The notes under the pieces: generated by a model
What the model saw: only the letters and a program-made list of their open reading frames with translations
What the model was told of the DNA's origin: nothing
The model's database searches: none
Shown here: piece by piece, positions 10,202 to 62,446 of the stretch
Numbering within the stretch: position 1 is the stretch's first letter
How the letters are laid out: the number at the start of each line of letters is the position of its first letter
Source: Thermoplasmata archaeon
GTDB taxonomy: Archaea > Thermoplasmatota > Thermoplasmata > Thermoplasmatales > ARK-15
Length of the DNA: 63,253 bases
Direction of reading: 5' to 3'
Assembly: GCA_038880255.1 (NCBI GenBank)
Contig: JAVZSA010000002.1
Span: 1-63,253 of the forward strand
Program-made: the position numbers and the translations under genes

Positions 10202-12961
10202 ATGAGTATTGAAAAGGCAAAAATTAGGTCGGCATTACCTTTTAACGTCCCATATAAAAAGGAAGATATATATTCATTATCCTTTTCTGATTTTATAGCA
10301 AAAATAAATGAAACTTATAATTCCATAGTCCCATTAAAACCTTCAACGCCTTCTAAAATAACTACTGATAAAATGGTAATACCGATGGATCCTATTTTAC
10401 CAATATTTCTAAAAAGGCCTGTAGTTAATTTTAATCAAATTTTACAGGATATTTCAAAGTTCACAAATCCTTTTTTAATTCCTTCCGGAGATCCTGATTC
10501 CATTTGGTCTCTTGATGTTATTTTTGAAAAATTGTTCAAAAGCAATTCCATAAATATAATTAAAAAATCGGTTTATTATTGTGATTTTTGTGGTACACAA
10601 CTTTCCAATAGGGATATTCATTTTGAAAAAGGTGAATTAAAAAAATTATATGCTAAAATAAAAATTTCTGAAAACACATATTTTATTTTTGAAGGACCTG
10701 AGGAAGTGGTATTACATCTTGATGGTATAAATATAAATCCTGATAGTATATTTATTTTACAAAATTTAGGAGAAGAAAAATGGATAATAGAAAAAAATGT
10801 TTTCGAAAGATTAAAGGAAAAAACTATTATTTTTCCATCTAAAATGGAAGAGAAAAAGGGTAAAGAGATTGTTGATGAATTTAAAATTGTCAAGGCCACA
10901 TTTATTCAGGAAATGCCAACTAAGTTTTTATCATCGGATATAAGTGATAATGATGCTATTATCATAGGCGAAGATGGAAAAAAAATACCTGTTGAGATTA
11001 TTGATCATGAATCTATTGAGGGAAATGTTCCTCATTGCAATTATTGCAATAAAAAGGTGACAAAAAAGAGGTTAAAAGGGGTATATCTAAAATTTAATAA
11101 CTTGAATTTTAGTATATTTCCAAAAAATTTTATAAGAATAAATGAAAAGAATATTTTAATTTCAAAGGATTTTAAAAATTTTCCTAAACTCCCTATAGTA
11201 GAATGCGATAAATGTGGAAGATTTGAATATGGCCAAAATGAAAAATCATGTATATGCGGTGGATTGATGACAAAAAAATACTCCTATGATCCCTCAATTT
11301 TACCATTAGGTGTTTACACAATGGTACAATCATATAAAAATAAGGGTATTTTAAATCATAAAGAGTTTAAGCATAGATTTCTTATGCTTGCTTTTATGTC
11401 TGAATTAAAGGCAAATTTTTTTTCTGATATATTTATTTATTATACCGATTTGAAGAATTATGATAATTTTTCAAATGAGGATCCTGAGGTAATAAGATTA
11501 TCATTCATATGTAAAAAAAATGGGAAATTCCACGAGAGTGATGTTAGGAGATTTAAAAAATTAAAAAATATGTTTGTTAACATTATTTCTTATAGTGAGA
11601 TTCATGGAGTTAGGGATGTTGAAAATATAATTGATCTGTGGATTTTTTCAGAATTGGAAAAATTTAAAGAGGAAATATTAAATTTCCTTGAAAATTACAA
11701 TTTCGGAGCCATTATAAGGAATTATGAATTTTTAATTTATAAATTTTCTAGAGATTACTTGCAAATGTTAAGAAAAAATAAAATTAATTCACAGGCATTT
11801 AATGAACTTCTAATATTATCTTACCCATTCTTTCCAAATTCCACAAAAAAATTCGCAAATAAATTTGGTATTGATCTTAATGATTTTAAAATAGGTAAAT
11901 TTTCCATAAATCAAACAATTGAAAAATTGGAAATGCAATTAAAGATGGGAAAAAGGGAAATATTGAAAATTAAAAGAAATAAGGAATTACCGGAATCAAT
12001 TCCTTTAAAAAAATTAATTATTGAAGTGGATTTTAAATATATTCCATTATTAATAAATATTAAACAGGAATTGATGAAATATTTTAACGCTTTTAATATT
12101 GAGATTACAGAAAAATGGCAAGGTCTTGAATATAGAGCTAAATTAAATAAAGATAAACTAGGAGAAATATACAAACCTCTCGCAAATATAATAGAAAATG
12201 TTCTTAGTAAAATTGATGCAAAAAAATTAAAAGAAGAAATCCAAAAGCATAATTATGAAATAGGTGTTGAAGGTAATTTAATCATTATCACACCTCAAAT
12301 GGTGGACTTCGTTTATGAATTACCGAAAAATTTTGAAATGATAGATTTAACAAATATTAAATTATTTGTAAATTTTGAAAAAGATGAGGAAATTATTAAT
12401 TTTGACATTGTAAAGAGATTATCAAGAAATATTTCATGGATGAGGAAAAAGGCTGGAATAGAGTATGATGATTTTATTGATGTTTCAATTTCAAATTCAA
12501 CACTAATAAAGAATAGTTTAAAGGGTTATATTCAAAAATTTAAGGAAAATTTAAAAATAAGAAACATCAATTTTTCTGATAGGATAACAGAATCTTTGAT
12601 TTTGACATTTAATAACATTGTTGAGGGTGAAATAGAAATTGGGATATCCCCCGTTTATAGAAAGTATAAAATTAAAGCAATTTCAAAACTTCCTGGACTT
12701 ACAAATGAAGATGCTGAAAATATATATAATGCTGGCTTTACAACAATAGATGAAATTAGAAAAAAAGATCCAAAACTAATTTCTGAAAAATCAAATGTAC
12801 CTTTATCAAAAATAAAAATAATAAAAGATTATTTAAATAATATTTTAAGCTTTAAGGTTTTGATCATAAAAGAAAAGTATTATTGTCCTATGTGTGAATC
12901 CGAACTAAATAGTATGGAAAAAAATTGCCCAAAATGTCAAGTTACTCTGGATTGGTCTTAA
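10202..12961 (+). CDS. class Ia aminoacyl-tRNA synthetase (IleRS)-like protein lacking HIGH/KMSKS, with C-terminal HhH and zinc ribbon
   Basis: 919 aa. Cys knuckles YYCDFCGTQLS, PHCNYCNKK, VECDKCG..CICGG. Anticodon-domain-like DLWIFSELEKF...FSRDYLQMLR and LSYPFFPNS. IleRS-like C-terminal extension. Then LPGLTNEDAENIYNAGFTTIDEI and CPMC..CPKC. See finding. Confidence 0.5.
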   Translation: MSIEKAKIRSALPFNVPYKKEDIYSLSFSDFIAKINETYNSIVPLKPSTPSKITTDKMVIPMDPILPIFLKRPVVNFNQILQDISKFTNPFLIPSGDPDSIWSLDVIFEKLFKSNSINIIKKSVYYCDFCGTQLSNRDIHFEKGELKKLYAKIKISENTYFIFEGPEEVVLHLDGININPDSIFILQNLGEEKWIIEKNVFERLKEKTIIFPSKMEEKKGKEIVDEFKIVKATFIQEMPTKFLSSDISDNDAIIIGEDGKKIPVEIIDHESIEGNVPHCNYCNKKVTKKRLKGVYLKFNNLNFSIFPKNFIRINEKNILISKDFKNFPKLPIVECDKCGRFEYGQNEKSCICGGLMTKKYSYDPSILPLGVYTMVQSYKNKGILNHKEFKHRFLMLAFMSELKANFFSDIFIYYTDLKNYDNFSNEDPEVIRLSFICKKNGKFHESDVRRFKKLKNMFVNIISYSEIHGVRDVENIIDLWIFSELEKFKEEILNFLENYNFGAIIRNYEFLIYKFSRDYLQMLRKNKINSQAFNELLILSYPFFPNSTKKFANKFGIDLNDFKIGKFSINQTIEKLEMQLKMGKREILKIKRNKELPESIPLKKLIIEVDFKYIPLLINIKQELMKYFNAFNIEITEKWQGLEYRAKLNKDKLGEIYKPLANIIENVLSKIDAKKLKEEIQKHNYEIGVEGNLIIITPQMVDFVYELPKNFEMIDLTNIKLFVNFEKDEEIINFDIVKRLSRNISWMRKKAGIEYDDFIDVSISNSTLIKNSLKGYIQKFKENLKIRNINFSDRITESLILTFNNIVEGEIEIGISPVYRKYKIKAISKLPGLTNEDAENIYNAGFTTIDEIRKKDPKLISEKSNVPLSKIKIIKDYLNNILSFKVLIIKEKYYCPMCESELNSMEKNCPKCQVTLDWS

Positions 12962-13587
12962 CCATACTTTAATGCCCTTATATTTTCTTCCATATTACCA
13001 AGAAATATTCCAGTGGCTGCACAAACTATATCCACATAATCTCTAATAAATTTTATTGTATCTTTGTTTATTCCACCATCAACGGCTATTTCAAAATTGT
13101 AATTGTTATCTTCTTTAATTTTTTTTAATTGTACGATTTTTGGGATCATATCCTTTATAAACTGCTGTCCAGAAAATCCTGGATGAACTGTCATGATAAG
13201 AACAAGATCAACCATATTTAAATATTCTTTTATTCCAGAAAGCTCTGTTTCTGGATTTACAGCAATACCTTTTTTGGCATTTTTAATTTTTTTCAAAGAT
13301 TCTAAAAAATTTTCAGATTCCACATGGACAGTTATAATATCCGCACCAGAATTTTCGAACCTTTCAACATAAAGATCAGGTCTTTTTATCATCAAATGAG
13401 CTTCAATCTGTTTATTAGAAATTTTTTTGAGATTTTTTATAAAATCTGGACCAACTGTAATATTTGGAACAAAATTTCCATCCATTACATCCACATGATA
13501 TAAATCTATACCATATTTTTCAATTTCTTTAACTGTTTCCCTTAAACAAGTTAAATCAAAAGATACTATTGATGCAGCTAATTTCAT
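12958..13587 (-). CDS. rpe: ribulose-phosphate 3-epimerase
   Basis: 209 aa. HVDVMDGNFVPNITVGP, HLMI, VHPGFSGQ, VDGGI. Confidence 0.9.
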   Translation of the reverse strand: MKLAASIVSFDLTCLRETVKEIEKYGIDLYHVDVMDGNFVPNITVGPDFIKNLKKISNKQIEAHLMIKRPDLYVERFENSGADIITVHVESENFLESLKKIKNAKKGIAVNPETELSGIKEYLNMVDLVLIMTVHPGFSGQQFIKDMIPKIVQLKKIKEDNNYNFEIAVDGGINKDTIKFIRDYVDIVCAATGIFLGNMEENIRALKYG

Positions 13588-13804: not shown

Positions 13805-15703
13805 TTGATAAACTTTAAAAAGTATAAAAATTTAAGATCATACGTTTTACTTATTGTAATTACACTACTTGGCATTTTACTTCGAATTTTACCTTCCTAC
13901 AGGTATTCAATATGGGGTGTAGACTTTGGTATATATTATGCTCTTACTACAGCTTTTGTAAATCTTGGCCTTATTTTTAATTCATTACCATCAATATGGG
14001 GTAGTTCAGGATATGGAAATTTTCCAATGTTCTATTGGACAATGGTATTAATACATGATCTAACAGGTTTTAGTGTAAATATGCTTCTTCTTAGGGTACC
14101 TCCAATATTTGCTGGATTTACAATTCCTATCATATATTTTATATCTAAAAAGATTACAAAATCAGATGCTATAGGCATTTTATCAGCTCTTTTTCTTGCC
14201 ATAAATCCACTTGAGATATTTGAAACTTCAATGGTGGGTCTTCTTGTTTTTGGCCATTTGTTTTTATTACTTTCGATCTTATTATTTTTATATTCAAGAG
14301 ATAATATAAAGTTTTATTTTCCATTAATATTCTCTTCAATTGCATTGATATTTTCACACCATTTAAGTACCTATATGTATATTTTGTCGATTTTTGGAAT
14401 AATTTATATAACAAAAATTGTAAATAATTCCTACAAAAATTACTATTTGGAAATTATATATTTAATAACATTTATATCTGGTACATTTGCCTATTGGTTC
14501 ATTAAAGTACCTTCAATGTACGCATTTATGGAACAAGCCTTTCTGGGGATTTTTCCTTGGTATATAGTTGTTATGATTTTTTACATTCTTGTATTTTTAC
14601 TATTTTTTATGTCAAAGTATATTAGGAAAATTGTAGAAAAAATTTCTATTAAAGAGATAGAAATGAAAGATTCTTTTACTTTCTTTCTTACATTATTTTT
14701 AGTATTTACAATTTTTATATTACTTGCTACAATTGGGATTAAAGGTATAAAAATTACATATTTAGGCTTAGTTTATTCAATTCCTTTTATTTTAACTATT
14801 GGTTTAATCGGAATAGGTATAAACAGAATTAAAAAATATTATAATGCAAAAATAATAATTTTAGGATGGATTTTCTTTCTTTCCATTTCTCTTCTATATT
14901 CCACAATTACATGGAATGGTGTTCTCATACCTTATAGATACCTTGAATATCTCTTTGAACCCTTTTCAATATTAGCAGGTATAGGATTTTATGAAATATA
15001 CAATTATAAAACAACACATCAACCTAAAGATGAAAGAAAATATTATTATTTACCACCTGAAAGTTTTATAAAAGCACCAGTGATTAGTCAAGAAATAAGA
15101 ACTTCTGCCCCAATGATGTTCTTTAATGAAAGAAATTTCAAAAAACTTGTACAAGTTGAAAATACAGATTTAAAATCAATTTTTCTAATATTTTTAATAA
15201 TATTTGTTATGATTTCATTAGTCACTGCATATCCATTTATAAATCAGGTAAGTGAAGTATCCCAAAACTATGTAACACCAGTAATGATGAGTGGAATATA
15301 TTGGATAGAAAAAAATGGAAATAAAAATTACAGTGTTGCAACAGATGCTGTCGATGGTCTTTACTTAGAGGCCCTGGGGTTTAATTCTAGTTTTGAATAT
15401 ACTTATTACTTATGGAATTCATCAAACTGGAAGGATGCAATTTATGAATTAAATGGTTTTAATGGAACTTATCCCAAAATAGGATATGTCCTTATAAATT
15501 CAAATATGTACTATAATGGTGTATATGGATATGAACTATCCACACATCCCTCCTATGATCCACCAATTTATATATCAAATTCCTCATTCGAAAAATTTTT
15601 TTCAGAACCATTCGAAAAGGTTTATTATAATAGTACTTATGATAATTCCCAATGGGTATATGTGTTTATAGTAAATTGGACCTATATTGAGAAAAATGGA
15701 TAA
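13805..15703 (+). CDS. GT-C fold glycosyltransferase-like polytopic membrane protein (PMT/ArnT/AglB-like architecture)
   Basis: 632 aa. About 12 or more hydrophobic helices, then a soluble Asn/Tyr-rich C-domain with several N-x-S/T sequons. Begins at TTG, with no in-frame ATG near the N-terminus. Confidence 0.55.
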   Translation: MINFKKYKNLRSYVLLIVITLLGILLRILPSYRYSIWGVDFGIYYALTTAFVNLGLIFNSLPSIWGSSGYGNFPMFYWTMVLIHDLTGFSVNMLLLRVPPIFAGFTIPIIYFISKKITKSDAIGILSALFLAINPLEIFETSMVGLLVFGHLFLLLSILLFLYSRDNIKFYFPLIFSSIALIFSHHLSTYMYILSIFGIIYITKIVNNSYKNYYLEIIYLITFISGTFAYWFIKVPSMYAFMEQAFLGIFPWYIVVMIFYILVFLLFFMSKYIRKIVEKISIKEIEMKDSFTFFLTLFLVFTIFILLATIGIKGIKITYLGLVYSIPFILTIGLIGIGINRIKKYYNAKIIILGWIFFLSISLLYSTITWNGVLIPYRYLEYLFEPFSILAGIGFYEIYNYKTTHQPKDERKYYYLPPESFIKAPVISQEIRTSAPMMFFNERNFKKLVQVENTDLKSIFLIFLIIFVMISLVTAYPFINQVSEVSQNYVTPVMMSGIYWIEKNGNKNYSVATDAVDGLYLEALGFNSSFEYTYYLWNSSNWKDAIYELNGFNGTYPKIGYVLINSNMYYNGVYGYELSTHPSYDPPIYISNSSFEKFFSEPFEKVYYNSTYDNSQWVYVFIVNWTYIEKNG

Positions 15704-17583: not shown

Positions 17584-18348
17584 TTATCTTTTTTCCAAAT
17601 CTTCACCACCAAAATATGACAATTGAATGTTAGAATAAACATCTTCCATACCTTTTAAATCCTTGGATGAAACAAATACAGGTTTAAAATTTATTCCGAG
17701 TGATTCCATTGCCTTAAACATTTCCAATGCATACTCTTTAACTATTCCTTCCTTTTCCTCCCTTAATTCTTCATAAAGATTTTCAATATTTTCCACCCTA
17801 AATCTCAAAGCATTTATATCATATTCTCCCAATAGATCAATTTTATTAATTATGTTTAAATAGGGTATATAAAACCTAAAATAAACTGATGCTGAAAGTA
17901 TTGCCAATGATACATATCCTGATGGTGAAATGGCAAGCATTGGATCCATTAAAAACAACATAAAACTTTCTTTTTCAGAAAGACTTTTTACAATTATATT
18001 TCCTGATGTTCTAAATGAAAATAACTCCATTTGACCAGGTGTGTCAATAATTACATAATCAGCATCAATAGAATCTATTTCATTTTTTATTTCATCAATT
18101 TTTGAAGCTATTAGATCAGATGCAAGTATTTGTGCACCGTTTGGTCCAAGGGAAAATTCTTCCATGACATCCTGCAATTGAATCCAATCTCTAACATCCA
18201 CATCAGGCTGGTATGGTATTTTTTCCGCTCCTGGATCAAAATTTACTGATATGGCGTAATAGTCATTATTTAACATCCATTCCTTAAAAGCAGATGTAAA
18301 TGTGGATTTACCTACGCCAGCAGGTCCTACAACATAAATATAAATCAT
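17584..18348 (-). CDS. GPN-loop GTPase
   Basis: 254 aa. Walker A GPAGVGKST, the GPN motif LGPNGA, DTPGQME. ATGA overlap with the upstream PolD gene. Confidence 0.8.
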   Translation of the reverse strand: MIYIYVVGPAGVGKSTFTSAFKEWMLNNDYYAISVNFDPGAEKIPYQPDVDVRDWIQLQDVMEEFSLGPNGAQILASDLIASKIDEIKNEIDSIDADYVIIDTPGQMELFSFRTSGNIIVKSLSEKESFMLFLMDPMLAISPSGYVSLAILSASVYFRFYIPYLNIINKIDLLGEYDINALRFRVENIENLYEELREEKEGIVKEYALEMFKAMESLGINFKPVFVSSKDLKGMEDVYSNIQLSYFGGEDLEKR

Positions 18349-21300
18349 ATAAAATCCTCCAATTTTTTTCCATTTGATTTTTGCTTTTCCTCAACAAATA
18401 ATGTTCTTATAGCTTCTTCAGCAAAAAGTAGTCTCTGTTTTGTATATCTACTTATTTTATATTTTTCAGAGATTTCCTTTGCCATATCTAGGTATTTTGT
18501 GATACCTCCTTCCGATATTGTTAATATAATATTTCCACCGCATTCACATTTACCACTTAACGTTATCCTTCTATATTTTCTATTACATTTAGAACATCTA
18601 AATTCTTGAGTACCATACTTTCGCATATTTCCCATTATATCAGGAATAAAATGATGTGAAACTATCCTATTTGCTACATCTATTTCATTAACAGCCCTTA
18701 ATTTTTCGGCAAGTATTAGTTGTGCATACGTTTTATTTTGCATTTCACCCAAAGTTTTATAAGCACTTTCATTGACCCCTACATTTATGTTTTCAGTATC
18801 GTTTGTAAAACCATAATTTGAATAAACATTTTCATTACCTAATCTATTCTTAATTATTTCCATAATTGATGATATCTCAGCAGGTTTTGCACCTCTTATA
18901 GTACTTTCATAGAATTCCAAGGGATATTTGTACATGATATCAACATTCAATGCCTCTTTATCAATTTCCTTTGGATCAACACGAATAGAAAGGAAAAGAG
19001 GAGCATCCATTAAGCCTCCCCTTGAAGAAGGAAGAAAATGCCTAGAAAAGTTTATTAAAGCATCGAGAACGAGCATAACAGAATCCTCATCCCCATCACA
19101 ATTTCTCCTTTTAGCAGCGTGATAAAATGGATGAGCAAAACAGGCTTGTGCATCTGTAAATCCTATAATACGGGCTAAAATGGCGCCGGAAGTATGTGGT
19201 GATAGCCCCATAACAAGATGACCAATCATATCCTCCACACTTTTAGCCTTATAATATGGCTCTAGACCATAATATCTTTCTAAAAGATCATCTATAAACT
19301 TGGATACATTAAATAAATACTCTGCTCCTTTTTTAGAAATTATAATGTCTTGAGGTAATAACTGTAAAATTTGATTTGGATCTTTAAGTTCATTTCCATA
19401 AATATCACTCTTATATCCAAATTCCCTTGCCTTCTCTATGCTTAATCCTACTTCATTCGGTCTAAAATGTGTAATTGCTAAATTACTCATATCAAATCTA
19501 GAAGTCCCATCCTTAAATACCCAAACACCATGTTTTGCTCTTAAAATACCTTTTTCAAGTGGTTCTGGAAGACTTTCCTTTGAAATAAGCCCTTTCACAC
19601 CCTTTACATCAAAATTATTCTCTTCTATACCTAGATTTTCAAAGGCATTTTTGAACTCTTCTATTATGGGAATTTCTAAAACCTCATTTTTACCAGAATA
19701 ATATGTTCTTGTATTACACCTTTCACATTTCACTTTATATGTTTTCGTTTTGCATTTTGGACAAATTCTTATCCCAACATTTACTTGAACTTTTTCAGAT
19801 GAATTTTCTTTAAGTAATGTGATAGACCTCCTTTTTCCTATTGTCTCCCCAATTGGAAAAAGGACATTTACAGGAGGACGCATCTTCCTTTCAGCAGCCT
19901 TTTCAGGTCTGCCCATTCTTGCACCAACCCTCGTTGGAGCTCTTGGATAAATATTGATTCCAGAAATTTTTTTAATAAAATCTATGGTATCTGTAGCATC
20001 ATTAATTTCCTTTTTTGATTCAATAATTTTCCCATTTTTATATTCAAGTCCCAGCAAAAATAATATAGATTCCCCATATTTTTCAATTATATAAAAATCC
20101 CTTTCTTTATGAAGTGCACCAAGTGAGCATAAAATTTCCTTAATTGTAGCATCTTTCTCAATATATAGGTAACCATTTTCAAAGTGACCTTTATGGATCA
20201 AATGATTTCTCAGCTTTTTTAATTCATCCAAAGATATATCATGCCAGAATAGATTGTAATCCGGATGTAATGGAATATCATACTTTAATGATAATTTTAA
20301 ATAATTTTCAAAATTTTCATTTTCAACATTTTCTATTCCTTTACTTTTTGCAATTTCAAGCCACCAATCTTTAGTAAATGCACCCCTTTTCAATGGATAA
20401 TTATTTTCTAAAAACTCCCCAAATGGTATTAAAATTTCTCCATTATCATAAATTTTTTTAACTTTATCCTTAAGTTTAATTGCCTCTTTATAATCATTTA
20501 TTTGGACTAAATCTCCATTCTCTAACAAGACAATAGGACCCTCAATACTATCGCAAGATGTTATACCAGCAGCTTTACCAGGAAATTCAAGTTTTAGCTG
20601 TGTTCCTATGGCTATAAAATTGTCCATGAGTACCATAGATGCTGGATTAATGGATACCGTTGCTAGGCCTCCAGTACGGCATCTACCATATCTAAGTCTA
20701 AAGCCTCCTTTCATTTCAGAATGTGAAAAAACTGGTCTACCTGCTACAAGATCTTCTATATATCTTTCAGACGCTTCACTCGAATTTTCACCATTTTCTT
20801 CTTTTATTAATTTTTCTAAAAATTCCCAACCACCAATGTTCATCTTTTCAACAATACCTTTCAATTTCCTTGCTTTCTGTATTATACCTTCTGCCACTAC
20901 AAGGCACATACCACCCCTTACCCTATTTGTTTCCACCTCAGGAAGATCCCTAAAACCAGAAACTTCAGATTCCAATGTACCTTCCCCGTCTATACACACT
21001 GGACAATTTCTTACAGTTATTTCTATTTCCTCTGGTGTTGGTTGGTACTGTAAATGTTCCAAATTGCCATAAATCTGAATTTCTTCCTTATATCTTTCAA
21101 TAATTTCATCAGTGGGTTTAAAATTACCTATTCCCAGATCCTTTCTTACCAAATCACCTATCAAAACACTTAATGCCTGAGCAGTTCCTCCAGCACCTCT
21201 AATTGGTCCAGAATAATATATTGATAAATATTCTGTATTATCTCTGTTCTTTTTCAATTTAATTTCAGTAATACCTTCCAATGGAGCTACAAGTATACCC

Positions 21301-21608
21301 TCAGTTAATATTGCAAGACCAACTCTAATTGAAATATCAAGTGCCTTTTGTTTATTATCTGAAAATCTTTTAGCTATTTCCCTTGCAGCCATTATACTTA
21401 CAGTTTCCCTATCATATTTTTTTGAGAATTCTCTTATAATCTTTGCTATACCTTCAATTCCAATTAAATTTTCTACCCTAGATGCCAAATCCTCTGCCAT
21501 TGGAATTTCAACATGTTCTTCAGGATCCTTTCCTTTTGATCTTGCAAGTTCAGCTATTTCATAACATTTTTCAACTTTTAATTTTAAATCATTAAAATAA
21601 TCTTCCAT
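18345..21608 (-). CDS. polC: DNA polymerase II (PolD) large subunit DP2
   Basis: 1087 aa. Typical DP2 blocks (GPIRGAGGTAQA, CPVCIDGEGT, RMGRPEKA, RRNCDGDED) and C-terminal Zn fingers CSKC..CECGG. No intein-like insertion seen. Confidence 0.95.
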   Translation of the reverse strand: MEDYFNDLKLKVEKCYEIAELARSKGKDPEEHVEIPMAEDLASRVENLIGIEGIAKIIREFSKKYDRETVSIMAAREIAKRFSDNKQKALDISIRVGLAILTEGILVAPLEGITEIKLKKNRDNTEYLSIYYSGPIRGAGGTAQALSVLIGDLVRKDLGIGNFKPTDEIIERYKEEIQIYGNLEHLQYQPTPEEIEITVRNCPVCIDGEGTLESEVSGFRDLPEVETNRVRGGMCLVVAEGIIQKARKLKGIVEKMNIGGWEFLEKLIKEENGENSSEASERYIEDLVAGRPVFSHSEMKGGFRLRYGRCRTGGLATVSINPASMVLMDNFIAIGTQLKLEFPGKAAGITSCDSIEGPIVLLENGDLVQINDYKEAIKLKDKVKKIYDNGEILIPFGEFLENNYPLKRGAFTKDWWLEIAKSKGIENVENENFENYLKLSLKYDIPLHPDYNLFWHDISLDELKKLRNHLIHKGHFENGYLYIEKDATIKEILCSLGALHKERDFYIIEKYGESILFLLGLEYKNGKIIESKKEINDATDTIDFIKKISGINIYPRAPTRVGARMGRPEKAAERKMRPPVNVLFPIGETIGKRRSITLLKENSSEKVQVNVGIRICPKCKTKTYKVKCERCNTRTYYSGKNEVLEIPIIEEFKNAFENLGIEENNFDVKGVKGLISKESLPEPLEKGILRAKHGVWVFKDGTSRFDMSNLAITHFRPNEVGLSIEKAREFGYKSDIYGNELKDPNQILQLLPQDIIISKKGAEYLFNVSKFIDDLLERYYGLEPYYKAKSVEDMIGHLVMGLSPHTSGAILARIIGFTDAQACFAHPFYHAAKRRNCDGDEDSVMLVLDALINFSRHFLPSSRGGLMDAPLFLSIRVDPKEIDKEALNVDIMYKYPLEFYESTIRGAKPAEISSIMEIIKNRLGNENVYSNYGFTNDTENINVGVNESAYKTLGEMQNKTYAQLILAEKLRAVNEIDVANRIVSHHFIPDIMGNMRKYGTQEFRCSKCNRKYRRITLSGKCECGGNIILTISEGGITKYLDMAKEISEKYKISRYTKQRLLFAEEAIRTLFVEEKQKSNGKKLEDFI

Positions 21609-28370: not shown

Positions 28371-29699
28371 ATGAATGTGCTTTTAATTGGAGGTGGAGGA
28401 AGAGAACATGCTATAGCTTCCGCAATAAAGAAGAGTAATGGATATATTTATTCTGTAATGGAAAATAGAAATCCTGGAATTTTAAGAATTTCAGAGGATT
28501 TTTTAATAACTAATGATTTTAGTAAATTAGAAAAATGGGAACCTATTAAAAATGGGAAAATAGATTTTGCAATTGTTGGACCTGAGGGACCATTGGAATT
28601 GGGTATCGTTAATAATTTAATGTCCCTTGGCATACCAAGTGCCTCACCTACAAAAGAAGCTGCACAGATAGAAACAAGTAAAAAATTTTTAAGAGATCTT
28701 ATGAAAAAATATTCAATTCCTGGAAACCTTGAGAGCCATTATTTTTCTAATAAGGATGCCCTTTTAGAATTTTTCAGAGATTTCAATGATGAATTTGTTG
28801 TAAAACCTGTAGGTCTCACAGGAGGTAAAGGTGTTAAGGTACAGGGTGACCACTTTCAAAAAAAAGAAGAAGGAATAGAATATGCATTAGAGGTATTAAA
28901 AAAAGGGATAGGGGAGGGAAAGGGTGTTCTAATTGAGGAAAAGATGGTAGGAGAAGAATATACACTTCAGGCCTTTACAGATGGTATCTCACTTATTCCA
29001 TTACCTTTGGTTCAGGACTTTAAACGAGCATTTGAAAATGATCAGGGGCCTAATACTGGTGGAATGGGATCATATTCTATGGATGACCAACTTCTACCAT
29101 TTATTGATTCAAATACAAAGGAAAAATCTATTGATATCCTAAATAAAATTATAGGTTCTTTAAAAAAGGAGGGAATTGTTTATAGAGGTACTATATATGG
29201 GCAATTTATGTTAACAAAAAGTGGTCCCAAAGTAATAGAAATTAATTCCAGATTTGGAGACCCTGAAGCAATAAATGTATTGTCAGTTTTTGATGGCGAT
29301 TTCTTGAATGTAATTGAGGGAATGGCATTGGGCAAACTTTCATCCAAATATGTAAAATTCAAGAATGAATCTACTGTCGTAAAATATTTGGTTCCACCCG
29401 GATATGGTATTTCAGCTCAATCAGGATTGGAATTTGAAGTAGATGAATCTAAAATAAATGAAGAGGGAGGATTGTTATACTTTGGCTCTGTGGAGGAAAA
29501 AAATGGGAAATTCTTTACAACACACTCTAGAACTTTAGCGATTGTAGGTAAACATAAAAATTTATATGATGCAGAAAAAATTGCAGAGAACTGTACAAAG
29601 TATGTTAGAGGGAATTTGTACCACAGGAGTGATATAGGAAAAAGGGAAACAATAGAGAAAAAGATTAGAAGAATGCAAGAAATTTTAAAAGATCCCTAA
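28371..29699 (+). CDS. purD: phosphoribosylamine-glycine ligase
   Basis: 442 aa. MNVLLIGGGGREHA, ATP-grasp blocks VVKPVGLTGGKGV, NSRFGDPE. Confidence 0.9.
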   Translation: MNVLLIGGGGREHAIASAIKKSNGYIYSVMENRNPGILRISEDFLITNDFSKLEKWEPIKNGKIDFAIVGPEGPLELGIVNNLMSLGIPSASPTKEAAQIETSKKFLRDLMKKYSIPGNLESHYFSNKDALLEFFRDFNDEFVVKPVGLTGGKGVKVQGDHFQKKEEGIEYALEVLKKGIGEGKGVLIEEKMVGEEYTLQAFTDGISLIPLPLVQDFKRAFENDQGPNTGGMGSYSMDDQLLPFIDSNTKEKSIDILNKIIGSLKKEGIVYRGTIYGQFMLTKSGPKVIEINSRFGDPEAINVLSVFDGDFLNVIEGMALGKLSSKYVKFKNESTVVKYLVPPGYGISAQSGLEFEVDESKINEEGGLLYFGSVEEKNGKFFTTHSRTLAIVGKHKNLYDAEKIAENCTKYVRGNLYHRSDIGKRETIEKKIRRMQEILKDP

Positions 29700-30347
29700 A
29701 AATTTTTCCATACTAGTTACAAGTTCATATGCTACTACCCAAGCAGGTAATGGTAAATGGTATATGGAAATATTCAAAAAAGAATTTAAATTTGATATGA
29801 AATCACCTGAAGGAAAACCTCCAATCAGAAAAAACATATTATCTTCAATAATCTCATCTATTTTTATTTTATTACCTTTTTCATTCAAAACAACTATTTT
29901 TGAAGGCTTTATTTTTTGGATTAATCCATTTATATCCATATCAAAAATTGAAAGAAGTGGTTTATTGGAACTCGGTACATAATGGTTGTGGAATAGGTCT
30001 TCCATTAAACCAATAAACCTGTTATAACTCTTTGGTATTCTTGTGGATGGATCAAAAAAAATTACCTTATTTTCTCTTGTATGCACATAGACCCTCAGAT
30101 TTCCTGAAAGGTTCAAAGGTGATTCAAGTGTATTTAGAAGAAAATATTGAACAATATCTGGTCTTCCTCTTCTATTCTCTTCCCCTGGAAAATATTTTTT
30201 TATTGCAGCATGGTGAAAATTTGAATCAAGCAATATATTACCAGGTTTCTTTCCTCTTCTCCTAGCTTGCTTTAAAACTGATTGATGACCCCAGAGTTCC
30301 TGAGGGACAGTTTCAAGTTCTGAATCCACCAGCGCAATATGAAACAT
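29685..30347 (-). CDS. nep1: ribosomal RNA small subunit methyltransferase Nep1 (EMG1 family)
   Basis: 220 aa. LLDSNFHH, RPDIVQYFLLNTLESPLN, SPOUT-type C-terminal half. Confidence 0.85.
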   Translation of the reverse strand: MFHIALVDSELETVPQELWGHQSVLKQARRRGKKPGNILLDSNFHHAAIKKYFPGEENRRGRPDIVQYFLLNTLESPLNLSGNLRVYVHTRENKVIFFDPSTRIPKSYNRFIGLMEDLFHNHYVPSSNKPLLSIFDMDINGLIQKIKPSKIVVLNEKGNKIKIDEIIEDNMFFLIGGFPSGDFISNLNSFLNISIYHLPLPAWVVAYELVTSMEKFLGIF

Positions 30348-43310: not shown

Positions 43311-44051
43311 TCATTTTATTACTATTATAATAAAAGCTGTATGCAAAATACCTGTATTTAATGGCCTCATTTCTCTTTGGCCATAAATCCATTCCCTTTC
43401 CATTATCTCATATATACTATTTTTTCTAAATTCAAAATTTTTTAGTTCCCGAACAAAATCTATGACCTGTGTTATGTTTGGTAAAAAAACAATTAACCTT
43501 CCATTAAATTTTAGAGAATTATAATAATCTTTTAAATAAATTTTAGGGTCTGGAATATCCACAAAAATTGCATCAAATTCATTATAATTTGTATTTAACT
43601 CATTATCAATTTTATATGGCTTGAAATAATCAATCCAACCTAACCAATCAAGTACATTTTTTACATGCACCAAATTTTTTTCAGATATGTCGTAGCCAAG
43701 TAATGTTGATGGTCTAATATAGTAAAGAATACCAACTGTAAGAAAACCGGAACCCACACCAATTTCAGCTACCTTACTGCTTGATGATATCCCTGATTTC
43801 CCAATCATATAAATCATATCTTTTAAAATGATTGTTTGTGTAATTCTTTCCATGTTAGAAAGTATATCCTCCAGAGTTGGTTTAACTATTAGGAAATTTA
43901 ATCCTAAAATGTTTATTTTATCACCATAGTTGTAATCTCTAAATTTCTCTGTATCAATTACCCCTAATCCAGGGATCCACTCCTTTTTACCACTCATTTT
44001 AAGAACATAAACCTTTCCATTCAATAATCCAATCAAATCTCCATAATTCAT
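43311..44051 (-). CDS. trmI: tRNA (adenine-N1)-methyltransferase TrmI (GCD14 family)
   Basis: N-terminal beta domain (GDLIGLLNGKVYVL...), motif I VAEIGVGSGFLT, FDAIFVDIPDP. Start taken at Met15. Confidence 0.75.
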   Translation of the reverse strand: MNYGDLIGLLNGKVYVLKMSGKKEWIPGLGVIDTEKFRDYNYGDKINILGLNFLIVKPTLEDILSNMERITQTIILKDMIYMIGKSGISSSSKVAEIGVGSGFLTVGILYYIRPSTLLGYDISEKNLVHVKNVLDWLGWIDYFKPYKIDNELNTNYNEFDAIFVDIPDPKIYLKDYYNSLKFNGRLIVFLPNITQVIDFVRELKNFEFRKNSIYEIMEREWIYGQREMRPLNTGILHTAFIIIVIK

Positions 44052-44397
44052 AAGAAAATTATTAAAAAAATGAATATTAATATTTGGTATCAACTTCTTT
44101 AATAAAAAAATTATGAAATAGAGGTTAGAAAAATATTCAAATTAAACAATCATAATAAGTTTAAAATGTTTCAAAAAGAATTTGCTATTTTCTTTAATAC
44201 CTTACGCAAAGAAGATAGATAAACAAAAAAAAATGTAATAGAATATAGATAATTTCGTTAATCTTATATGTAAGGGTAAGAAACTTTGATTTAAAACAAT
44301 TGTTATTTGAAATGAAGATATTGTATTAAATGTAATTTGTCATTGAAATCATAACCCTACCGTAATGATTAAATAAAAAAATTGAATTTAAAAAATT

Positions 44398-45615: not shown

Positions 45616-46064
45616 ATGATGAAAAATTTTTGAAAACAATAGAACTTTTGATTGAAAAAAATGATGAAATCCCTGTGATAGTAGAAGGAAAAAGGGATTT
45701 AATTTCATTGCGTAAGGTAGGCCTAAAGGGACAAATCATAATTTTCAACAATGGTAAAAAAATAATAGAATTTACTGAAGAAATCATAAAGAATTATAGA
45801 GAAATAATCATACTATTTGATAGGGATAGAAAAGGTAAATTACTTACAGAAACAATATCTAGGATACTTAGTTCAAGGGGTATTCACGTTATATTAGAAT
45901 TTCGTGAGATGATATTTAATTATTCAGATGCAAAATCTATTGAAGAAATCTACACTTATTATGAAAATTCTTTGGAAAGAAAAATTAATGGTAAAAGGTG
46001 GAAAAATGATAGTTTTGGGTATAGAAGGAACAGCCCATACTCTAGGAATAGGAATAATGGATGA
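45612..46064 (+). CDS. small Toprim-domain protein
   Basis: 150 aa. VIVEGKRD (Toprim Glu) and ILFDRDRKG (DxD). The 3' end overlaps kae1 by 59 nt. Confidence 0.65.
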
Positions 46065-47616
46065 TGAAAAAATACTTGCTAATGTAATTGAAATGTTCTT
46101 GCCCGAAAAGGGGGGAATACATCCAAGAGAGGCAGCTATACACCATTCAAATGTTTTTGTACAGACCCTAAAAAAAGCATTAGCAATTGCAAAATTAAAT
46201 CTCAAAGATGTAGAACTTGTTTCTTTTTCAAAGGGTCCTGGATTAGGACCATGTTTAAGGACAGTGGCAACAGCAGCAAGAGCAATATCACTTAAATTAA
46301 ACGTACCAATTATCGGAGTAAATCATAGTATTGCACATCTTGAAATAGGAAAATTGACTGGAGGTGCAGAGGATCCAATAATGACATATGTTTCAGGAGG
46401 AAATACACAAATAATATCATATTTCAGAGGTAGATATAGGGTATTTGGAGAAACACTTGATATGGGTATTGGAAATCTATTGGATAAATTTGCTAGAGAA
46501 ATGGGTTTACCTTTCCCTGGTGGACCTAAAATTGAGGAATTGGCAAAAAAGGGAAATAAATATTATCCTCTCCCATATTCCATCAAAGGAATGGACGTAT
46601 CATTTTCCGGTATATTAACTGCAGCTAAATCCCTTGCAAATGAAGGTGTTTCAATTGAAAATCTTTCCTATTCTCTTCAGGAAACAGTATTTTCAATGAT
46701 GACAGAGGTAACTGAAAGAGCCCTGGCTCATCTGCATAAGGATGAAGTATTGCTAGCCGGTGGTGTAGCAAGGAACAAGAGACTTTTTGAAATGATGAAA
46801 AAAATGACAGATGAAAGAGGAGCTAATTTATACGCACCACCACCTGATTTATGTGTTGATAATGGGGTTATGATTGCATATTTAGGTGAAATAATGTATA
46901 AAAGTGGTATAAGAATGAAAATTGAGGATACTGTTGTAGATCAAAAGTTCAGGGCAGATTCAATTGAGGCCCCCTGGGTAATTGAAAAATTACACTACAA
47001 AAATTATGATGAACTTCCAGGTGCTGAGGCAAAAATAACAGAATCACAGTATGTTGGTATAAAAACAATAAAAAAAGAGAGAATTAGTAAGGGATACAGA
47101 ATAAATGATTTGGATTTATTTTTAAGGAAGGAGAGAACAAAAAGGGAGGCAAAGATTCTAAATATGATGAAAAAATTTGGGATTAATGCTCCTTATATTC
47201 TTGACATAGATTTACAGAATTATACAATTTATTTAACTAAGATAAATGGGAGAACTTTAAGGGAAATTTTTGATAATTTAAATGAAGAAATAAAAAGATA
47301 TTTTGATAAAAAAATAGGAGAATATGTAGCAATTTTGCATAAAAATGGTATTTCACACGGTGATTTAACAACAAGTAATATTATGTATGATGGTGAGAAA
47401 ATTTATTTTATAGATCCTTCAATGGGGGAATTAAATTCAAAGATAGAGGAATTTGGAACTGATCTTCACCTTTTAAAGGAATCACTTTACAGCACACATG
47501 AAAATGGTATGAACCATTTTAACATAATTCTTCAAAGTTACATTGAGAATTATCCGGATGGAATTGAAAATGTTCATAGAATGAAAGAAATAGAAATGAG
47601 GAGGAGATACTCATGA
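46006..47616 (+). CDS. kae1-bud32: bifunctional tRNA t6A synthesis protein Kae1-Bud32 fusion
   Basis: From [20 protein letters not shown] and ASKHA-fold blocks (Kae1), then the RIO-like kinase half with HGDLTTSN and DPSMG. Upstream track residues are read-through. Confidence 0.9.
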
Positions 47617-62266: not shown

Positions 62267-62446
62267 TTTATTTCTTTATTGCTTTTTATTATTTAATTGA
62301 TTTTGTTCTAAATTTAAAATTTTAAATAAAAATTTTTCATTCAAAAATTTTAAATATGGATGAATATTAGTAGTTTAACAAGGCAATGGCGTTTGCCTTA
62401 ATTCCCTTGTGGTGATAACGCCTACAATAAAAAGATTGGTGAAATC

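What the first reader, a model, noticed from the sequence alone, without database searches (positions are those of the whole stretch)
10202..12961. Collinear but catalytically degenerate IleRS-like paralogue with an added HhH + zinc-ribbon tail
The 919-aa ORF reads as a class Ia (Ile/Val/Leu-type) aminoacyl-tRNA synthetase skeleton whose catalytic signatures are gone. Residues 12-35 (LPFNVPYKKEDIYSLSFSDFIAKI) sit where GPPxxxGxxHxGHxxxxxxKD normally lies, so HIGH is replaced by YSLS. YYCDFCGTQLSNRD (aa 125-138), PHCNYCNKKV (278-287) and VECDKCG...CICGG (334-354) mimic the connective-peptide Zn knuckles (WCPRCxTALS, PxCWRC, CPKCGG). KNGKFHESD (439-447) occupies the KMSKS position. DLWIFSELEKFKEEILNFLENYNFGAIIRNYEFLIYKFSRDYLQMLR plus LSYPFFPNS resembles the anticodon-binding-domain signature (DRWILSxL..Y.F.....F....LSxxYL...KDR; APxxPF). 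The next ~250 aa resemble the archaeal/eukaryal IleRS C-terminal extension, including an RExxRxxQxxRK-like VKRLSRNISWMRKKAGIEYDD. A non-synthetase tail follows: the helix-hairpin-helix-like LPGLTNEDAENIYNAGFTTIDEI and a CPMC...CPKC ribbon. A synthetase scaffold that keeps tRNA-recognition modules, loses the active site and gains a nucleic-acid-binding tail suggests a pseudo-synthetase, possibly a tRNA/RNA-binding regulator, chaperone or sensor. I do not recognise this as a described family.
Basis: partly seen in the sequence, partly recalled or inferred. Interest (0 to 1): 0.75.

Follow-up and report, generated by a model that had tools for sequence, protein, structure and literature searches.

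The report
Non-catalytic IleRS-like protein, Thermoplasmata
This archaeal gene encodes a well-conserved copy of the enzyme that loads isoleucine onto tRNA; the copy has lost everything needed for catalysis but keeps the parts that grip the tRNA anticodon and carries an extra nucleic-acid/protein-binding tail, so it most likely binds tRNA rather than charges it, and it belongs to a larger, apparently undescribed group of such proteins.

Summary
The 919-aa ORF (10202..12961 +) is real. It is conserved in Thermoplasmata MAGs at 42-62% identity, with dN/dS about 0.1 or lower. It is homologous to type-2 (archaeal/eukaryal) IleRS: hhalign E=8e-45 over residues 110-819, and Foldseek E=3e-40 to IleRS2 and yeast IleRS.

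HIGH is absent. The GxDxHG segment and a 31-residue block holding KMSKS are deleted. The editing motifs are gone. Both Zn knuckles are kept, as are ARD1 (Anticodon_1), ARD2/INS and ARD3 (DUF5915).

Residues shown experimentally to read A35/U36 in IleRS2 are conserved. The G34 pocket keeps its Arg/Lys residues but loses the universal Gln.

The HhH + Zn-ribbon tail is not unique to this protein. The protein nests (90% bootstrap) in a Thermoplasmatota clade of IleRS proteins carrying HhH/Zn-ribbon tails, nearly all ending in DUF835 (inactivated KaiC). Some members keep the catalytic motifs and many do not. The window's subfamily is the most reduced and has no DUF835.

Best reading: a non-catalytic pseudo-synthetase that binds tRNA(Ile)-type anticodon arms. 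Its downstream role as sensor, adaptor or regulator is only inferred.

Co-existence of a canonical ileS in the same genome could not be tested. I found no description in the literature searched.

The parts
10202..12961 (+). Complete CDS of the IleRS-like pseudo-synthetase (919 aa plus stop). It starts 28 nt after the stop of the upstream nnr (YjeF) gene, and its last 4 nt overlap the convergent rpe gene.
   Evidence: ORF. The same protein occurs on 23 or more contigs in at least 9 MAG assemblies. Homologues at 42-62% identity over the full length. dN 0.22-0.28 against saturated dS.
10202..10549 (+). aa 1-116: degenerate first half of the Rossmann (HUP) fold. HIGH is absent (its position reads KKED) and the GxDxHG amino-acid-binding segment is deleted. 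P13 and D30 are retained.
   Evidence: Alignments. AF2 model at pLDDT about 55-92 here, with beta-alpha elements. No sequence-profile hit for aa 1-109.
10550..11071 (+). aa 117-290: CP1 with a shortened editing-domain remnant (149 aa between knuckle Cys, against 220 in canonical P0095), bracketed by Zn knuckle 1 (C127/C130 and C279/C282). The editing motifs TTTPWT and GTGxVHxAPGHG are replaced by FEGPEE and PTKFLSS.
   Evidence: Weak NCBIfam LeuRS hit over aa 108-246.
11072..11281 (+). aa 291-360: CP2 region with Zn knuckle 2 (C335/C338 and C350/C352-G-G).
   Evidence: The Cys are invariant or nearly so across 37 sequences. Alignment to CPKCGG.
11282..11533 (+). aa 361-444: degenerate second half of the Rossmann fold. 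A 31-residue block containing the KMSKS loop is deleted after about aa 415. R432 of the conserved G-x-D-x-L-R motif that follows KMSKS in the canonical IleRS set is retained.
11534..11896 (+). aa 445-565: helical anticodon-recognition domain ARD1 (Pfam Anticodon_1). It retains N460, Y464, S516, Y519 and R524, the equivalents of PmIleRS2 N647, F651, S713, Y716 and R721, which read A35/U36.
   Evidence: Pfam. Residue mapping. Mutational data in bioRxiv 10.64898/2026.02.03.703510.
11897..12652 (+). aa 566-817: type-2 IleRS C-terminal tRNA-binding module, ARD2 with INS plus ARD3 (Pfam DUF5915). R742, R748 and K749 are retained (equivalents of R958, R964 and K965). The Gln of the G34 pocket (Q961) is replaced by S745.
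   Evidence: Pfam. PDB profile hit 8c8u over query 451-794. hhalign. Column analysis.
12653..12847 (+). aa 818-882: helix-hairpin-helix, (HhH)2-like domain.
   Evidence: HHH_5 E=1.3e-3 in the window protein and above the gathering score in relatives P0055 and P0060-P0065. Family profile against the RadA N-terminal domain E=1.2e-4, NusA 0.024, Hel308-type helicase 0.041. AF2 gives five helices at pLDDT 83-91.
12848..12958 (+). aa 883-919: C-terminal four-Cys zinc ribbon (C895-x2-C898 ... C909-x2-C912).
   Evidence: The four Cys are invariant in 10 of 10 short-family sequences. Zn_ribbon Pfam hits above or near the gathering score in relatives. The same ribbon sits after the HhH in full-size P0060 and P0068.

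Best explanation
The gene encodes a maintained, non-catalytic descendant of an archaeal type-2 isoleucyl-tRNA synthetase, that is, a pseudo-synthetase.

Shown:
- It is collinear with IleRS from about residue 110 to 819 and is predicted to adopt the IleRS fold.
- It lacks HIGH, KMSKS, the amino-acid-binding segment and the editing motifs, so it cannot activate isoleucine, charge tRNA or edit.
- It keeps both structural Zn knuckles and the whole anticodon-side tRNA platform (ARD1, ARD2/INS, ARD3), including the Arg that is essential for reading A35/U36.
- It carries a C-terminal (HhH)2 + Zn-ribbon module.
- It is under purifying selection.
- It belongs to a monophyletic Thermoplasmatota clade of tail-bearing IleRS and IleRS-like proteins, nearly all of which end in an inactivated-KaiC (DUF835) signalling domain.

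Inferred:
- The protein binds the anticodon arm of tRNA(Ile)-type (NAU-anticodon) tRNAs without charging them. Specificity at position 34 is altered, because the G34-pocket Gln is lost.
- It uses the HhH/Zn-ribbon tail to contact a partner (protein, DNA or RNA).
- It therefore acts as a tRNA(Ile)-dependent adaptor, sensor or regulator rather than as an enzyme.
- A canonical ileS elsewhere in the genome supplies Ile-tRNA(Ile).
For: Homology and fold:
- Family profile against PDB IleRS2, E=9.5e-15.
- hhalign of the family against canonical IleRS: probability 100%, E=8e-45, 703 aligned columns.
- AF2 model with pLDDT 87 and pTM 0.73.
- Foldseek top hits are IleRS2 8c8v (E=2.9e-40) and yeast IleRS-tRNA(Ile) 8wnd (E=1.3e-32, TM 0.61), ahead of ValRS and LeuRS.

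Loss of catalysis:
- No tRNA-synt_1 hit and no NCBIfam IleRS hit.
- HIGH and KMSKS are absent in all 10 short-family sequences but present in the canonical sequences.
- GFDMHGLP and the KMSKS block are deleted.
- The editing motifs are replaced and the editing domain is shortened.

Retention of the tRNA platform:
- Anticodon_1 and DUF5915 pass their gathering scores.
- N460, Y464, S516 and R524, and R742, R748 and K749, are conserved at positions shown by mutagenesis to be needed for anticodon recognition.
- Invariant residues are about twice as dense in the C-terminal half.

Selection:
- The ORF is intact in 5 or more lineages at 42-62% identity. pS is 0.72-0.79 and dN is 0.22-0.28 in every domain.

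Clade membership:
- The short family has 100% bootstrap support and all tail-bearing proteins together have 90%.
- Relatives carry HhH, Zn ribbon and DUF835.
- DUF835 is classed as iKaiC (PMC5847659).
Against: - No binding or activity data exist. tRNA binding is inferred from conserved residues only.
- The universally conserved Gln of the G34 pocket is lost, and the R964 equivalent is Lys in two lineages. Anticodon recognition may therefore be altered or relaxed.
- The window protein lacks the DUF835 output domain, and no DUF835 gene lies within the 63 kb window. A signalling role cannot simply be transferred from the larger relatives.
- The degenerate N-terminal half is as conserved within the close family as the tRNA-binding half. 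That hints at a function not captured by 'tRNA binding'.
- A co-resident canonical ileS was not demonstrated.
- The MSA used for the good AF2 model contained canonical IleRS sequences, so the fold of residues 1-109 may be biased toward IleRS.
- Gene neighbourhoods are housekeeping and give no functional link.
Confidence: 0.6

Rival explanations
1. It is a very divergent but still active IleRS, possibly the only one in the genome.
For: It has full IleRS collinearity and fold and intact anticodon-reading residues. No other ileS lies in the 63 kb window, and I could not demonstrate one elsewhere.
Against: HIGH and KMSKS are both absent. The GxDxHG segment and the KMSKS loop are physically deleted, and there is no tRNA-synt_1 or NCBIfam IleRS hit. 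These elements are required for adenylate formation in class I synthetases (established knowledge). Canonical IleRS proteins with intact motifs do exist in related hot-spring Thermoplasmata MAGs (P0095 and P0353).
Confidence: 0.02
2. It is the tRNA-sensing component of a starvation or translation-status signalling pathway. It would be analogous to the HisRS-like domain of GCN2: it binds uncharged tRNA(Ile) and relays the signal through its tail to a separately encoded KaiC-type or other partner.
For: Relatives in the same clade fuse the IleRS-like body to DUF835, an inactivated KaiC-like domain found as an output domain of archaeal response regulators. Many of those relatives have also lost the catalytic motifs, which suggests the body is used for binding and not for catalysis. 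The anticodon platform is retained. A KaiC-domain protein is encoded in the window at 50061..52124.
Against: This protein has no output domain. The isoleucine and ATP pocket and the acceptor-end sites are destroyed, so there is no obvious way to tell charged from uncharged tRNA. The KaiC-domain gene is 37 kb away with no demonstrated link. No conserved signalling neighbour was seen.
Confidence: 0.15
3. It is a DNA- or chromatin-associated, or otherwise non-tRNA, nucleic-acid-binding protein in which the IleRS body is only a scaffold and the HhH + Zn ribbon is the functional end. One example would be a regulator that binds a tRNA-like mRNA element or DNA.
For: The (HhH)2 domain resembles the RadA/Rad51 N-terminal and Hel308 HhH domains. 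The Zn ribbon is strictly conserved. All domains, including the degenerate ones, are conserved.
Against: The most deeply conserved residues across the wider family are the IleRS anticodon-contact residues and the INS subdomain, not the tail. HhH identity within the family is 52-58%, no higher than elsewhere. Motif-intact IleRS enzymes carry the same tail, so the tail is compatible with a tRNA-centred function.
Confidence: 0.12
4. It is an aminoacyl-tRNA-dependent transferase or trans-editing factor, like the IleRS homologue SbzA, that uses Ile-tRNA(Ile) as a substrate.
For: SbzA shows that IleRS homologues can be repurposed this way (review PMC9437257). The tRNA platform is retained.
Against: Both the synthetic-site and editing-site motifs are lost or deleted. 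No biosynthetic gene cluster lies around the gene; the neighbours are nnr and rpe. Outside the Zn Cys there is no conserved set of polar residues in the N-terminal half that would suggest a new active site.
Confidence: 0.04
5. It is a decaying gene remnant with no function.
For: Every catalytic signature is lost.
Against: A full-length intact ORF is present in five or more lineages diverged to 42% identity, and a 100%-identical protein occurs on 23 or more contigs. dN is far below saturated dS in every domain. The confident fold prediction points the same way.
Confidence: 0.01

Closest known systems
Type-2 (archaeal/eukaryal) isoleucyl-tRNA synthetase, e.g. Priestia megaterium IleRS2 (PDB 8C8U/8C8V) and yeast IleRS (8WND)
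   Same: The domain order is the same: HUP, CP1/ED, CP2, HUP, ARD1, ARD2(INS), ARD3. It also shares both Zn knuckles, the anticodon A35/U36-reading residues and the overall fold.
   Different: It has no HIGH, no KMSKS, no amino-acid pocket segment and no editing motifs, and its editing domain is shortened. About 200 residues are deleted in total. An HhH + Zn-ribbon tail is added and the G34-pocket Gln is lost.
Tail-bearing IleRS and IleRS-like proteins of Thermoplasmatota (IleRS, HhH, Zn ribbon, sometimes TPR, then DUF835/iKaiC), e.g. P0060, P0066, P0068 and P0093 (Ca. Sysuiplasma acidicola). As far as I could find they are undescribed as a group.
   Same: They form one clade on the ARD1-ARD3 tree (90% bootstrap). 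They share the HhH then Zn-ribbon order directly after ARD3, and many members have likewise lost HIGH and KMSKS.
   Different: Those proteins are 1174-2329 aa and keep a full-size catalytic body recognisable by Pfam tRNA-synt_1, and all but one of those tabulated (P0065) end in DUF835. The window protein is the most reduced form at 919 aa, with no tRNA-synt_1 hit and no DUF835.
LeuRS-I of Sulfolobaceae (Weitzel et al. 2020, as summarised in PMC9437257)
   Same: It is an archaeal class Ia synthetase duplicate with a disrupted CP1 editing domain and a divergent C-terminus. It binds tRNA but does not aminoacylate, and its role is unknown and presumed to depend on tRNA.
   Different: LeuRS-I still forms leucyl-adenylate, so its synthetic site is intact. 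Here the adenylation site itself is destroyed. The parent enzyme (Ile against Leu), the lineage and the HhH/Zn-ribbon tail also differ.
HisRS-like domain of GCN2, and HisZ
   Same: These are catalytically dead aaRS-derived modules kept for ligand or tRNA binding and used for regulation (established knowledge).
   Different: They derive from a class II HisRS. GCN2 is a eukaryotic kinase fusion, whereas here there is no fused output domain, although relatives carry iKaiC. The resemblance is an analogy only, and no homology is implied.
SbzA, an IleRS homologue acting as an Ile-tRNA-dependent transferase (PMC9437257)
   Same: It is an IleRS-derived paralogue with a function outside translation.
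   Different: SbzA is a bacterial biosynthetic-cluster enzyme with catalytic activity. Here there is no cluster and no candidate active site.

Membership tests
Functional isoleucyl-tRNA synthetase (class Ia) | HIGH signature (H-x-G-H/T/N) after the first Rossmann strand | tested here: not met
   The position reads KKED. HIGH is absent in all 10 short-family sequences and recognisable in most canonical comparators.
Functional isoleucyl-tRNA synthetase (class Ia) | KMSKS loop | tested here: not met
   A 31-residue block containing KMSKS is deleted.
Functional isoleucyl-tRNA synthetase (class Ia) | Amino-acid-binding segment (G-x-D-x-H-G) | tested here: not met
   GFDMHGLPIEVKV is deleted. There is no Pfam tRNA-synt_1 hit and no NCBIfam IleRS hit.
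Functional isoleucyl-tRNA synthetase (class Ia) | CP1 editing domain with the Thr-rich (TTTPWT) and GTGxVHxAPGHG motifs | tested here: not met
   The motifs are replaced by FEGPEE and PTKFLSS. The domain is shortened from 220 to 149 residues between the knuckle Cys.
Functional isoleucyl-tRNA synthetase (class Ia) | Two structural Zn-binding Cys knuckles in CP1/CP2 | tested here: met
   C127/C130/C279/C282 and C335/C338/C350/C352 are invariant or nearly so.
Functional isoleucyl-tRNA synthetase (class Ia) | Helical anticodon-binding domain (Anticodon_1/ARD1) with the Arg that reads A35/U36 | tested here: met
   Pfam E=7.5e-8, above the gathering score. R524 (the R721 equivalent) and N460, Y464 and S516 are conserved.
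Functional isoleucyl-tRNA synthetase (class Ia) | Type-2 C-terminal ARD2/ARD3 (DUF5915) with the G34 pocket (Q961, R964, K965) | tested here: inconclusive
   DUF5915 scores 27.6 bits against a cutoff of 27, and the region is well aligned by hhalign. R748 and K749 are kept, but the Gln is replaced by Ser.
Functional isoleucyl-tRNA synthetase (class Ia) | Overall IleRS fold | tested here: met
   Foldseek E=2.9e-40 to 8c8v, with IleRS ranked above ValRS and LeuRS. Caveat: the MSA behind the model included canonical IleRS sequences.
Tail-bearing IleRS/IleRS-like clade of Thermoplasmatota (defined here) | HhH domain followed by a four-Cys Zn ribbon directly after ARD3 | tested here: met
Tail-bearing IleRS/IleRS-like clade of Thermoplasmatota (defined here) | Groups with the clade on the ARD1-ARD3 phylogeny | tested here: met
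   90% bootstrap for all 31 tail-bearing sequences in an NJ tree. The internal branching order is unresolved.
Tail-bearing IleRS/IleRS-like clade of Thermoplasmatota (defined here) | C-terminal DUF835 (iKaiC) domain | tested here: not met
   The protein ends at the Zn ribbon. A DUF835 HMM finds nothing in the six-frame translation of the window. P0054 and the P0002-P0005 group also lack it.
Non-catalytic aaRS paralogue (pseudo-synthetase, LeuRS-I type) | A canonical synthetase of the same specificity co-exists in the genome | tested here: inconclusive
   None lies in the 63 kb window. Three routes to the rest of the genome failed. Co-existence is expected, because IleRS is universally essential.
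Non-catalytic aaRS paralogue (pseudo-synthetase, LeuRS-I type) | Binds the cognate tRNA but does not aminoacylate it | not testable with these tools
   This needs biochemistry. The sequence predicts both properties.
GCN2-type tRNA sensor | Pseudo-aaRS module physically coupled to a signalling output domain | tested here: not met
   The window protein has no output domain. It is met only by the larger relatives that carry DUF835.

The most novel reading that the evidence does not exclude
The window protein and its larger relatives (IleRS-like body, HhH, Zn ribbon, inactivated KaiC) would form a previously unrecognised archaeal system. In it, a catalytically dead IleRS body serves as a tRNA(Ile) receptor that couples tRNA(Ile) availability, modification or charging status to KaiC-type signalling or to gene regulation. 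This would be an archaeal functional counterpart of the GCN2 HisRS-like sensor. The 919-aa form would be a stand-alone receptor that docks to its partner through the HhH/Zn-ribbon tail.
Probability: 0.15. Interest if true: 0.85.

Novelty: new variant of a known kind. Interest (0 to 1): 0.62.

Why it matters
Catalytically dead synthetase paralogues are known, for example GCN2's HisRS-like domain, HisZ and LeuRS-I. An IleRS-derived one is not listed in the reviews or the large IleRS census I could read.

This is also not an isolated oddity. It is the most reduced member of a Thermoplasmatota clade in which IleRS acquired HhH/Zn-ribbon tails (nearly all members also ending in an inactivated-KaiC domain), and many members then lost the catalytic motifs.

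That pattern gives a natural series running from an active enzyme with a tail, to a full-size dead enzyme with a tail, to a minimal dead scaffold. The series could be used to ask what a synthetase body does when it no longer charges tRNA.

How archaea sense amino-acid or tRNA status is poorly understood (my own knowledge). If the body acts as a tRNA(Ile) receptor wired to KaiC-like signalling, this family would be a concrete handle on that question.

At minimum, database annotation should change. The family is currently 'DUF5915 domain-containing protein', and some dead full-size relatives are labelled isoleucine--tRNA ligase.

Tried and rejected
1. Canonical ileS in the window: the 1087-aa ORF at 18345..21608 is the PolD large subunit, not IleRS. 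phmmer with canonical IleRS against the six-frame translation hits only the finding itself.

2. Co-occurrence of a canonical ileS in the same MAG. All routes failed.
- The third homologue search, seeded with P0228, returned Woesearchaeota IleRS.
- The single genome-collection scan used a concatenated query of the window protein plus P0095. The tool picked over-specific peptides and found only a Clostridia IleRS2.
- Assemblies carrying canonical P0095 or P0353 (GCA_038852645.1, ERZ27247235) did not match any of the assemblies I could list for family members.

3. Word-indexed search with the wider alignment A2 did not return P0054-P0058 and added only canonical IleRS.

4. First AF2 run with 5 sequences: the N-terminal half was unusable (pLDDT 58). 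It was replaced by the 37-sequence run.

5. Within-species dN/dS: uninformative, because the contigs were retrieved by exact protein identity, giving 2-4 synonymous differences only.

6. DUF835 or a KaiC partner next to the gene: none. The only KaiC-domain gene is 37 kb away.

7. Synteny as a functional clue:
- nnr upstream and rpe downstream in the close lineages.
- An AspRS-type gene upstream in the P0005 and P0054 lineages.
- arcTGT and a RAM-domain gene around P0066.
- FEN1 and NUDIX around the intact P0093.
No neighbour is conserved across the clade.

8. Rejected explanations: active divergent IleRS, trans-editing factor and decaying pseudogene (see the rival explanations).

9. First NJ/bootstrap script timed out and was rerun with numpy.

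Full report
OBSERVATION

The window is about 30% G+C. It carries ordinary Thermoplasmata housekeeping genes: PFOR, PGK, FtsY, SHMT, PolD, RNase HII, FttA, proteasome, Nuo, Kae1-Bud32 and others.

It begins 28 nt after nnr (YjeF). Its last 4 nt overlap the convergent rpe gene.

The identical protein is encoded on 23 or more contigs from at least nine NCBI MAG assemblies. NCBI names it only 'DUF5915 domain-containing protein [Thermoplasmata archaeon]', and one cluster member is labelled Aciduliprofundum sp..

IS IT IleRS-LIKE?

Yes, on four independent lines.
1. Pfam finds Anticodon_1 (aa 478-564, E=7.5e-8) and DUF5915, the C-terminal domain of archaeal/eukaryal IleRS (aa 633-792, E=2.5e-6). Both are above their gathering scores. 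There is no tRNA-synt_1 hit.
2. A profile of the five close family members hits PDB IleRS2 chains at E=9.5e-15. Query 451-794 aligns to chain 639-1011, with a second weak stretch of 122-240 to 176-301.
3. hhalign of that profile against an alignment of twelve canonical IleRS sequences gives probability 100% and E=8e-45. There are 703 aligned columns, query 110-819 to template 163-1052.
4. An AlphaFold2 model from a 37-sequence alignment is confident (pLDDT 87.3, pTM 0.73). Its best Foldseek matches in the PDB are P. megaterium IleRS2 (E=2.9e-40) and yeast IleRS bound to tRNA(Ile) (E=1.3e-32, TM 0.61). Other IleRS structures follow, then ValRS, then LeuRS.

Caveats: the first 109 residues have no sequence-profile support, and the MSA for the model included canonical IleRS.

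ARE THE CATALYTIC ELEMENTS GONE?

I aligned the protein with canonical and intermediate sequences.
- The HIGH position reads KKED. It is anchored on the invariant D30, the Asp of the K-D that follows HIGH.
- The GxDxHG amino-acid-binding segment (GFDMHGLPIEVKV in a canonical Thermoplasmata IleRS) is deleted.
- A 31-residue block containing KMSKS is deleted.
- The editing-site motifs TTTPWT and GTGxVHxAPGHG are replaced by FEGPEE and PTKFLSS.
- The editing domain is shortened from 220 to 149 residues between the knuckle cysteines.
- About 200 residues are missing in all.

It aligns downstream of the deletion.

Both IleRS Zn knuckles are invariant or nearly so across 37 sequences. They are C127/C130 with C279/C282, and C335/C338 with C350/C352.

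WHAT IS KEPT?

The anticodon side of the enzyme is kept. A 2026 preprint reports a PmIleRS2-tRNA complex with mutagenesis (bioRxiv 10.64898/2026.02.03.703510).
- R721 in ARD1 is essential for reading A35/U36, helped by N647, F651 and S713.
- R964 in ARD3 is essential for reading G34, helped by Q961 and K965.

I mapped these through the alignment and the 37-sequence alignment.
- The ARD1 set corresponds to N460, Y464, S516 and R524. All four are conserved across the short family; N460 is conserved in 8 of 10 sequences and the others in 10 of 10.
- In ARD3, R742 and K749 are invariant, and R748 (the R964 equivalent) is Arg or Lys.
- The Gln is Q in every canonical and every motif-intact sequence examined. 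In nine of the ten short-family sequences it is replaced by S, A, E, K or N.

Across the wider short family (23-28% identity), invariant residues are about twice as dense in the C-terminal half as in the N-terminal half. Nearly half of the N-terminal invariants are the zinc cysteines.

IS IT A LIVE GENE?

Yes. Homologues at 62, 61, 59 and 42% identity are full length with no disruptions. Between lineages the synonymous sites are saturated (pS 0.72-0.79) while dN is 0.22-0.28. That gives dN/dS of roughly 0.1 or lower in every domain, including the degenerate catalytic body.

THE WIDER FAMILY

An exhaustive profile search of 1.84 billion representatives found 573 hits.
- Closest are further short forms: P0054 (934 aa, no DUF835) and P0055-P0058 (999-1091 aa).
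- P0055-P0058 have the same degenerate body, Anticodon_1, DUF5915, HhH and Zn ribbon, plus a C-terminal DUF835.
- Next come proteins of 1174-2329 aa from Thermoplasmatota MAGs. They have a strong tRNA-synt_1 domain, Anticodon_1 and DUF5915, then one to three HhH units, often a Zn ribbon, sometimes TPR, and in all but one of those tabulated a terminal DUF835.
- Galperin and colleagues class DUF835 as an inactivated KaiC domain that serves as an output domain of archaeal response regulators (PMC5847659).

A motif survey shows two groups among the large proteins.
- P0060, P0071, P0084, P0086 and P0093 (Ca. Sysuiplasma acidicola) keep HxGT and xMSK(S/T).
- P0064-P0068, P0070, P0072, P0073, P0075, P0079, P0083, P0085, P0087 and P0089 have lost both.

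I built a neighbour-joining tree on ARD1-ARD3 with 200 bootstraps.
- The short family is monophyletic at 100%.
- The DUF835-less short forms group at 90%.
- All 31 tail-bearing sequences group at 90%, next to canonical Thermoplasmata IleRS.
- The internal order is unresolved. I cannot say how many times the motifs were lost.

So the HhH + Zn-ribbon tail predates the loss of catalysis. The window protein is the most reduced member of the clade, and its subgroup has no DUF835. No DUF835 gene lies in the window.

CONTEXT

- In the window lineage and two sister lineages the gene lies between nnr and a convergent rpe.
- In the P0005 and P0054 lineages an AspRS-type gene with a DUF5611 gene lies divergently upstream.
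- The dead full-size P0066 lies between archaeosine TGT and a stand-alone RAM-domain gene.
- The intact tailed IleRS of Sysuiplasma lies between FEN1 and a NUDIX gene.

Nothing is conserved across the clade, so context gives no functional lead.

INTERPRETATION

Shown: this is a conserved, IleRS-derived protein that cannot perform adenylation, transfer or editing. It preserves the Zn-stabilised architecture and the anticodon-recognition platform, and it carries an (HhH)2 + Zn-ribbon tail.

Inferred:
- It binds the anticodon arm of NAU-anticodon tRNAs, that is tRNA(Ile), possibly with changed preference at position 34.
- The tail tethers that complex to a partner.
- A canonical ileS exists elsewhere in the genome.

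The sensor idea draws on the DUF835-bearing relatives. It is attractive but weak for this protein, which has no output domain and no obvious way to sense the acyl end.

The rivals are judged unlikely for the reasons given in their entries. They are active divergent IleRS, Ile-tRNA-dependent transferase, trans-editing factor and pseudogene. A non-tRNA nucleic-acid-binding role through the tail cannot be excluded.

COMPARISON WITH KNOWN SYSTEMS

- The protein is not a member of the functional IleRS family. Four defining catalytic features were tested and not met.
- It works most like the non-aminoacylating archaeal LeuRS-I, which binds tRNA and has a disrupted CP1 (PMC9437257). It is more degenerate, because LeuRS-I still makes adenylate.
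- Conceptually it resembles the HisRS-like module of GCN2.
- For IleRS, that review lists only IleRS2 and SbzA as duplicates.
- The 96,000-sequence IleRS census does not mention HhH tails, inactive forms or Thermoplasmata.
- Full-text searches for DUF5915, and for KaiC-like with IleRS, found nothing.

I therefore rate it a new variant of a known kind (aaRS-derived pseudo-enzyme).

WHAT FAILED

I could not show a canonical ileS in the same genome. This is the main open point and is trivially checkable with the assemblies listed.

Noticed in passing
Related proteins P0060, P0064-P0075, P0079, P0083-P0093 (not in the window); loci L023, L024, L027, L028: Thermoplasmatota encode IleRS proteins of 1174-2329 aa extended by HhH repeats, Zn ribbons and sometimes TPR, nearly all ending in DUF835 (inactivated KaiC). 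Some keep HIGH and KMSKS (for example Ca. Sysuiplasma acidicola, 1228 aa). Many have lost both yet are annotated 'isoleucine--tRNA ligase' or 'class I tRNA ligase family protein'.
   Followed up: partly
window 50061..52124 (-): A 687-aa protein whose only Pfam match is a KaiC/DUF7504 domain at aa 450-647. The N-terminal 450 residues have no match. No link to the pseudo-IleRS was established.
   Followed up: no
window 62373..62431 (+): Fluoride riboswitch (crcB motif), 41.5 bits against a gathering score of 34.
   Followed up: no
window 43311..44093 (-), 45928..47616 (+), 29685..30347 (-): Three RNA-modification genes lie in the window: a Trm61/GCD14-like methyltransferase, a Kae1-Bud32 fusion (t6A37 synthesis, a modification of ANN-decoding tRNAs including tRNA-Ile) and Nep1/EMG1. 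There is no evidence of linkage to the finding.
   Followed up: no
window 13805..15703 (+): A 632-aa, apparently multi-pass membrane protein with no Pfam match. It lies just beyond rpe and is present at the same place in all MAG copies of this locus.
   Followed up: no
L003 737..2026, L020 28..1314, L021 347..1633, L026 1..898: In the more divergent lineages (P0005, P0048, P0054) the pseudo-IleRS gene is divergently paired with an AspRS-type class II synthetase gene, which is followed by a DUF5611 gene in L003 and L021. In the window lineage nnr occupies that position instead.
   Followed up: partly
L023 4486..6375 and 11153..11401 (same arrangement in L024): The full-size, motif-dead, DUF835-bearing relative P0066 is flanked by archaeosine tRNA-guanine transglycosylase upstream. 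Downstream lie a stand-alone RAM (AsnC_trans_reg) domain gene, an acyl-CoA dehydrogenase and an aminotransferase. This may hint at amino-acid metabolism, but was not tested.
   Followed up: no
window 12958..12961: The last sense codon and the stop codon of the pseudo-IleRS gene overlap by 4 nt with the 3' end of the convergent rpe gene (12958..13587, -). The same tail-to-tail arrangement is kept in L001, L002, L003 and L026.
   Followed up: no
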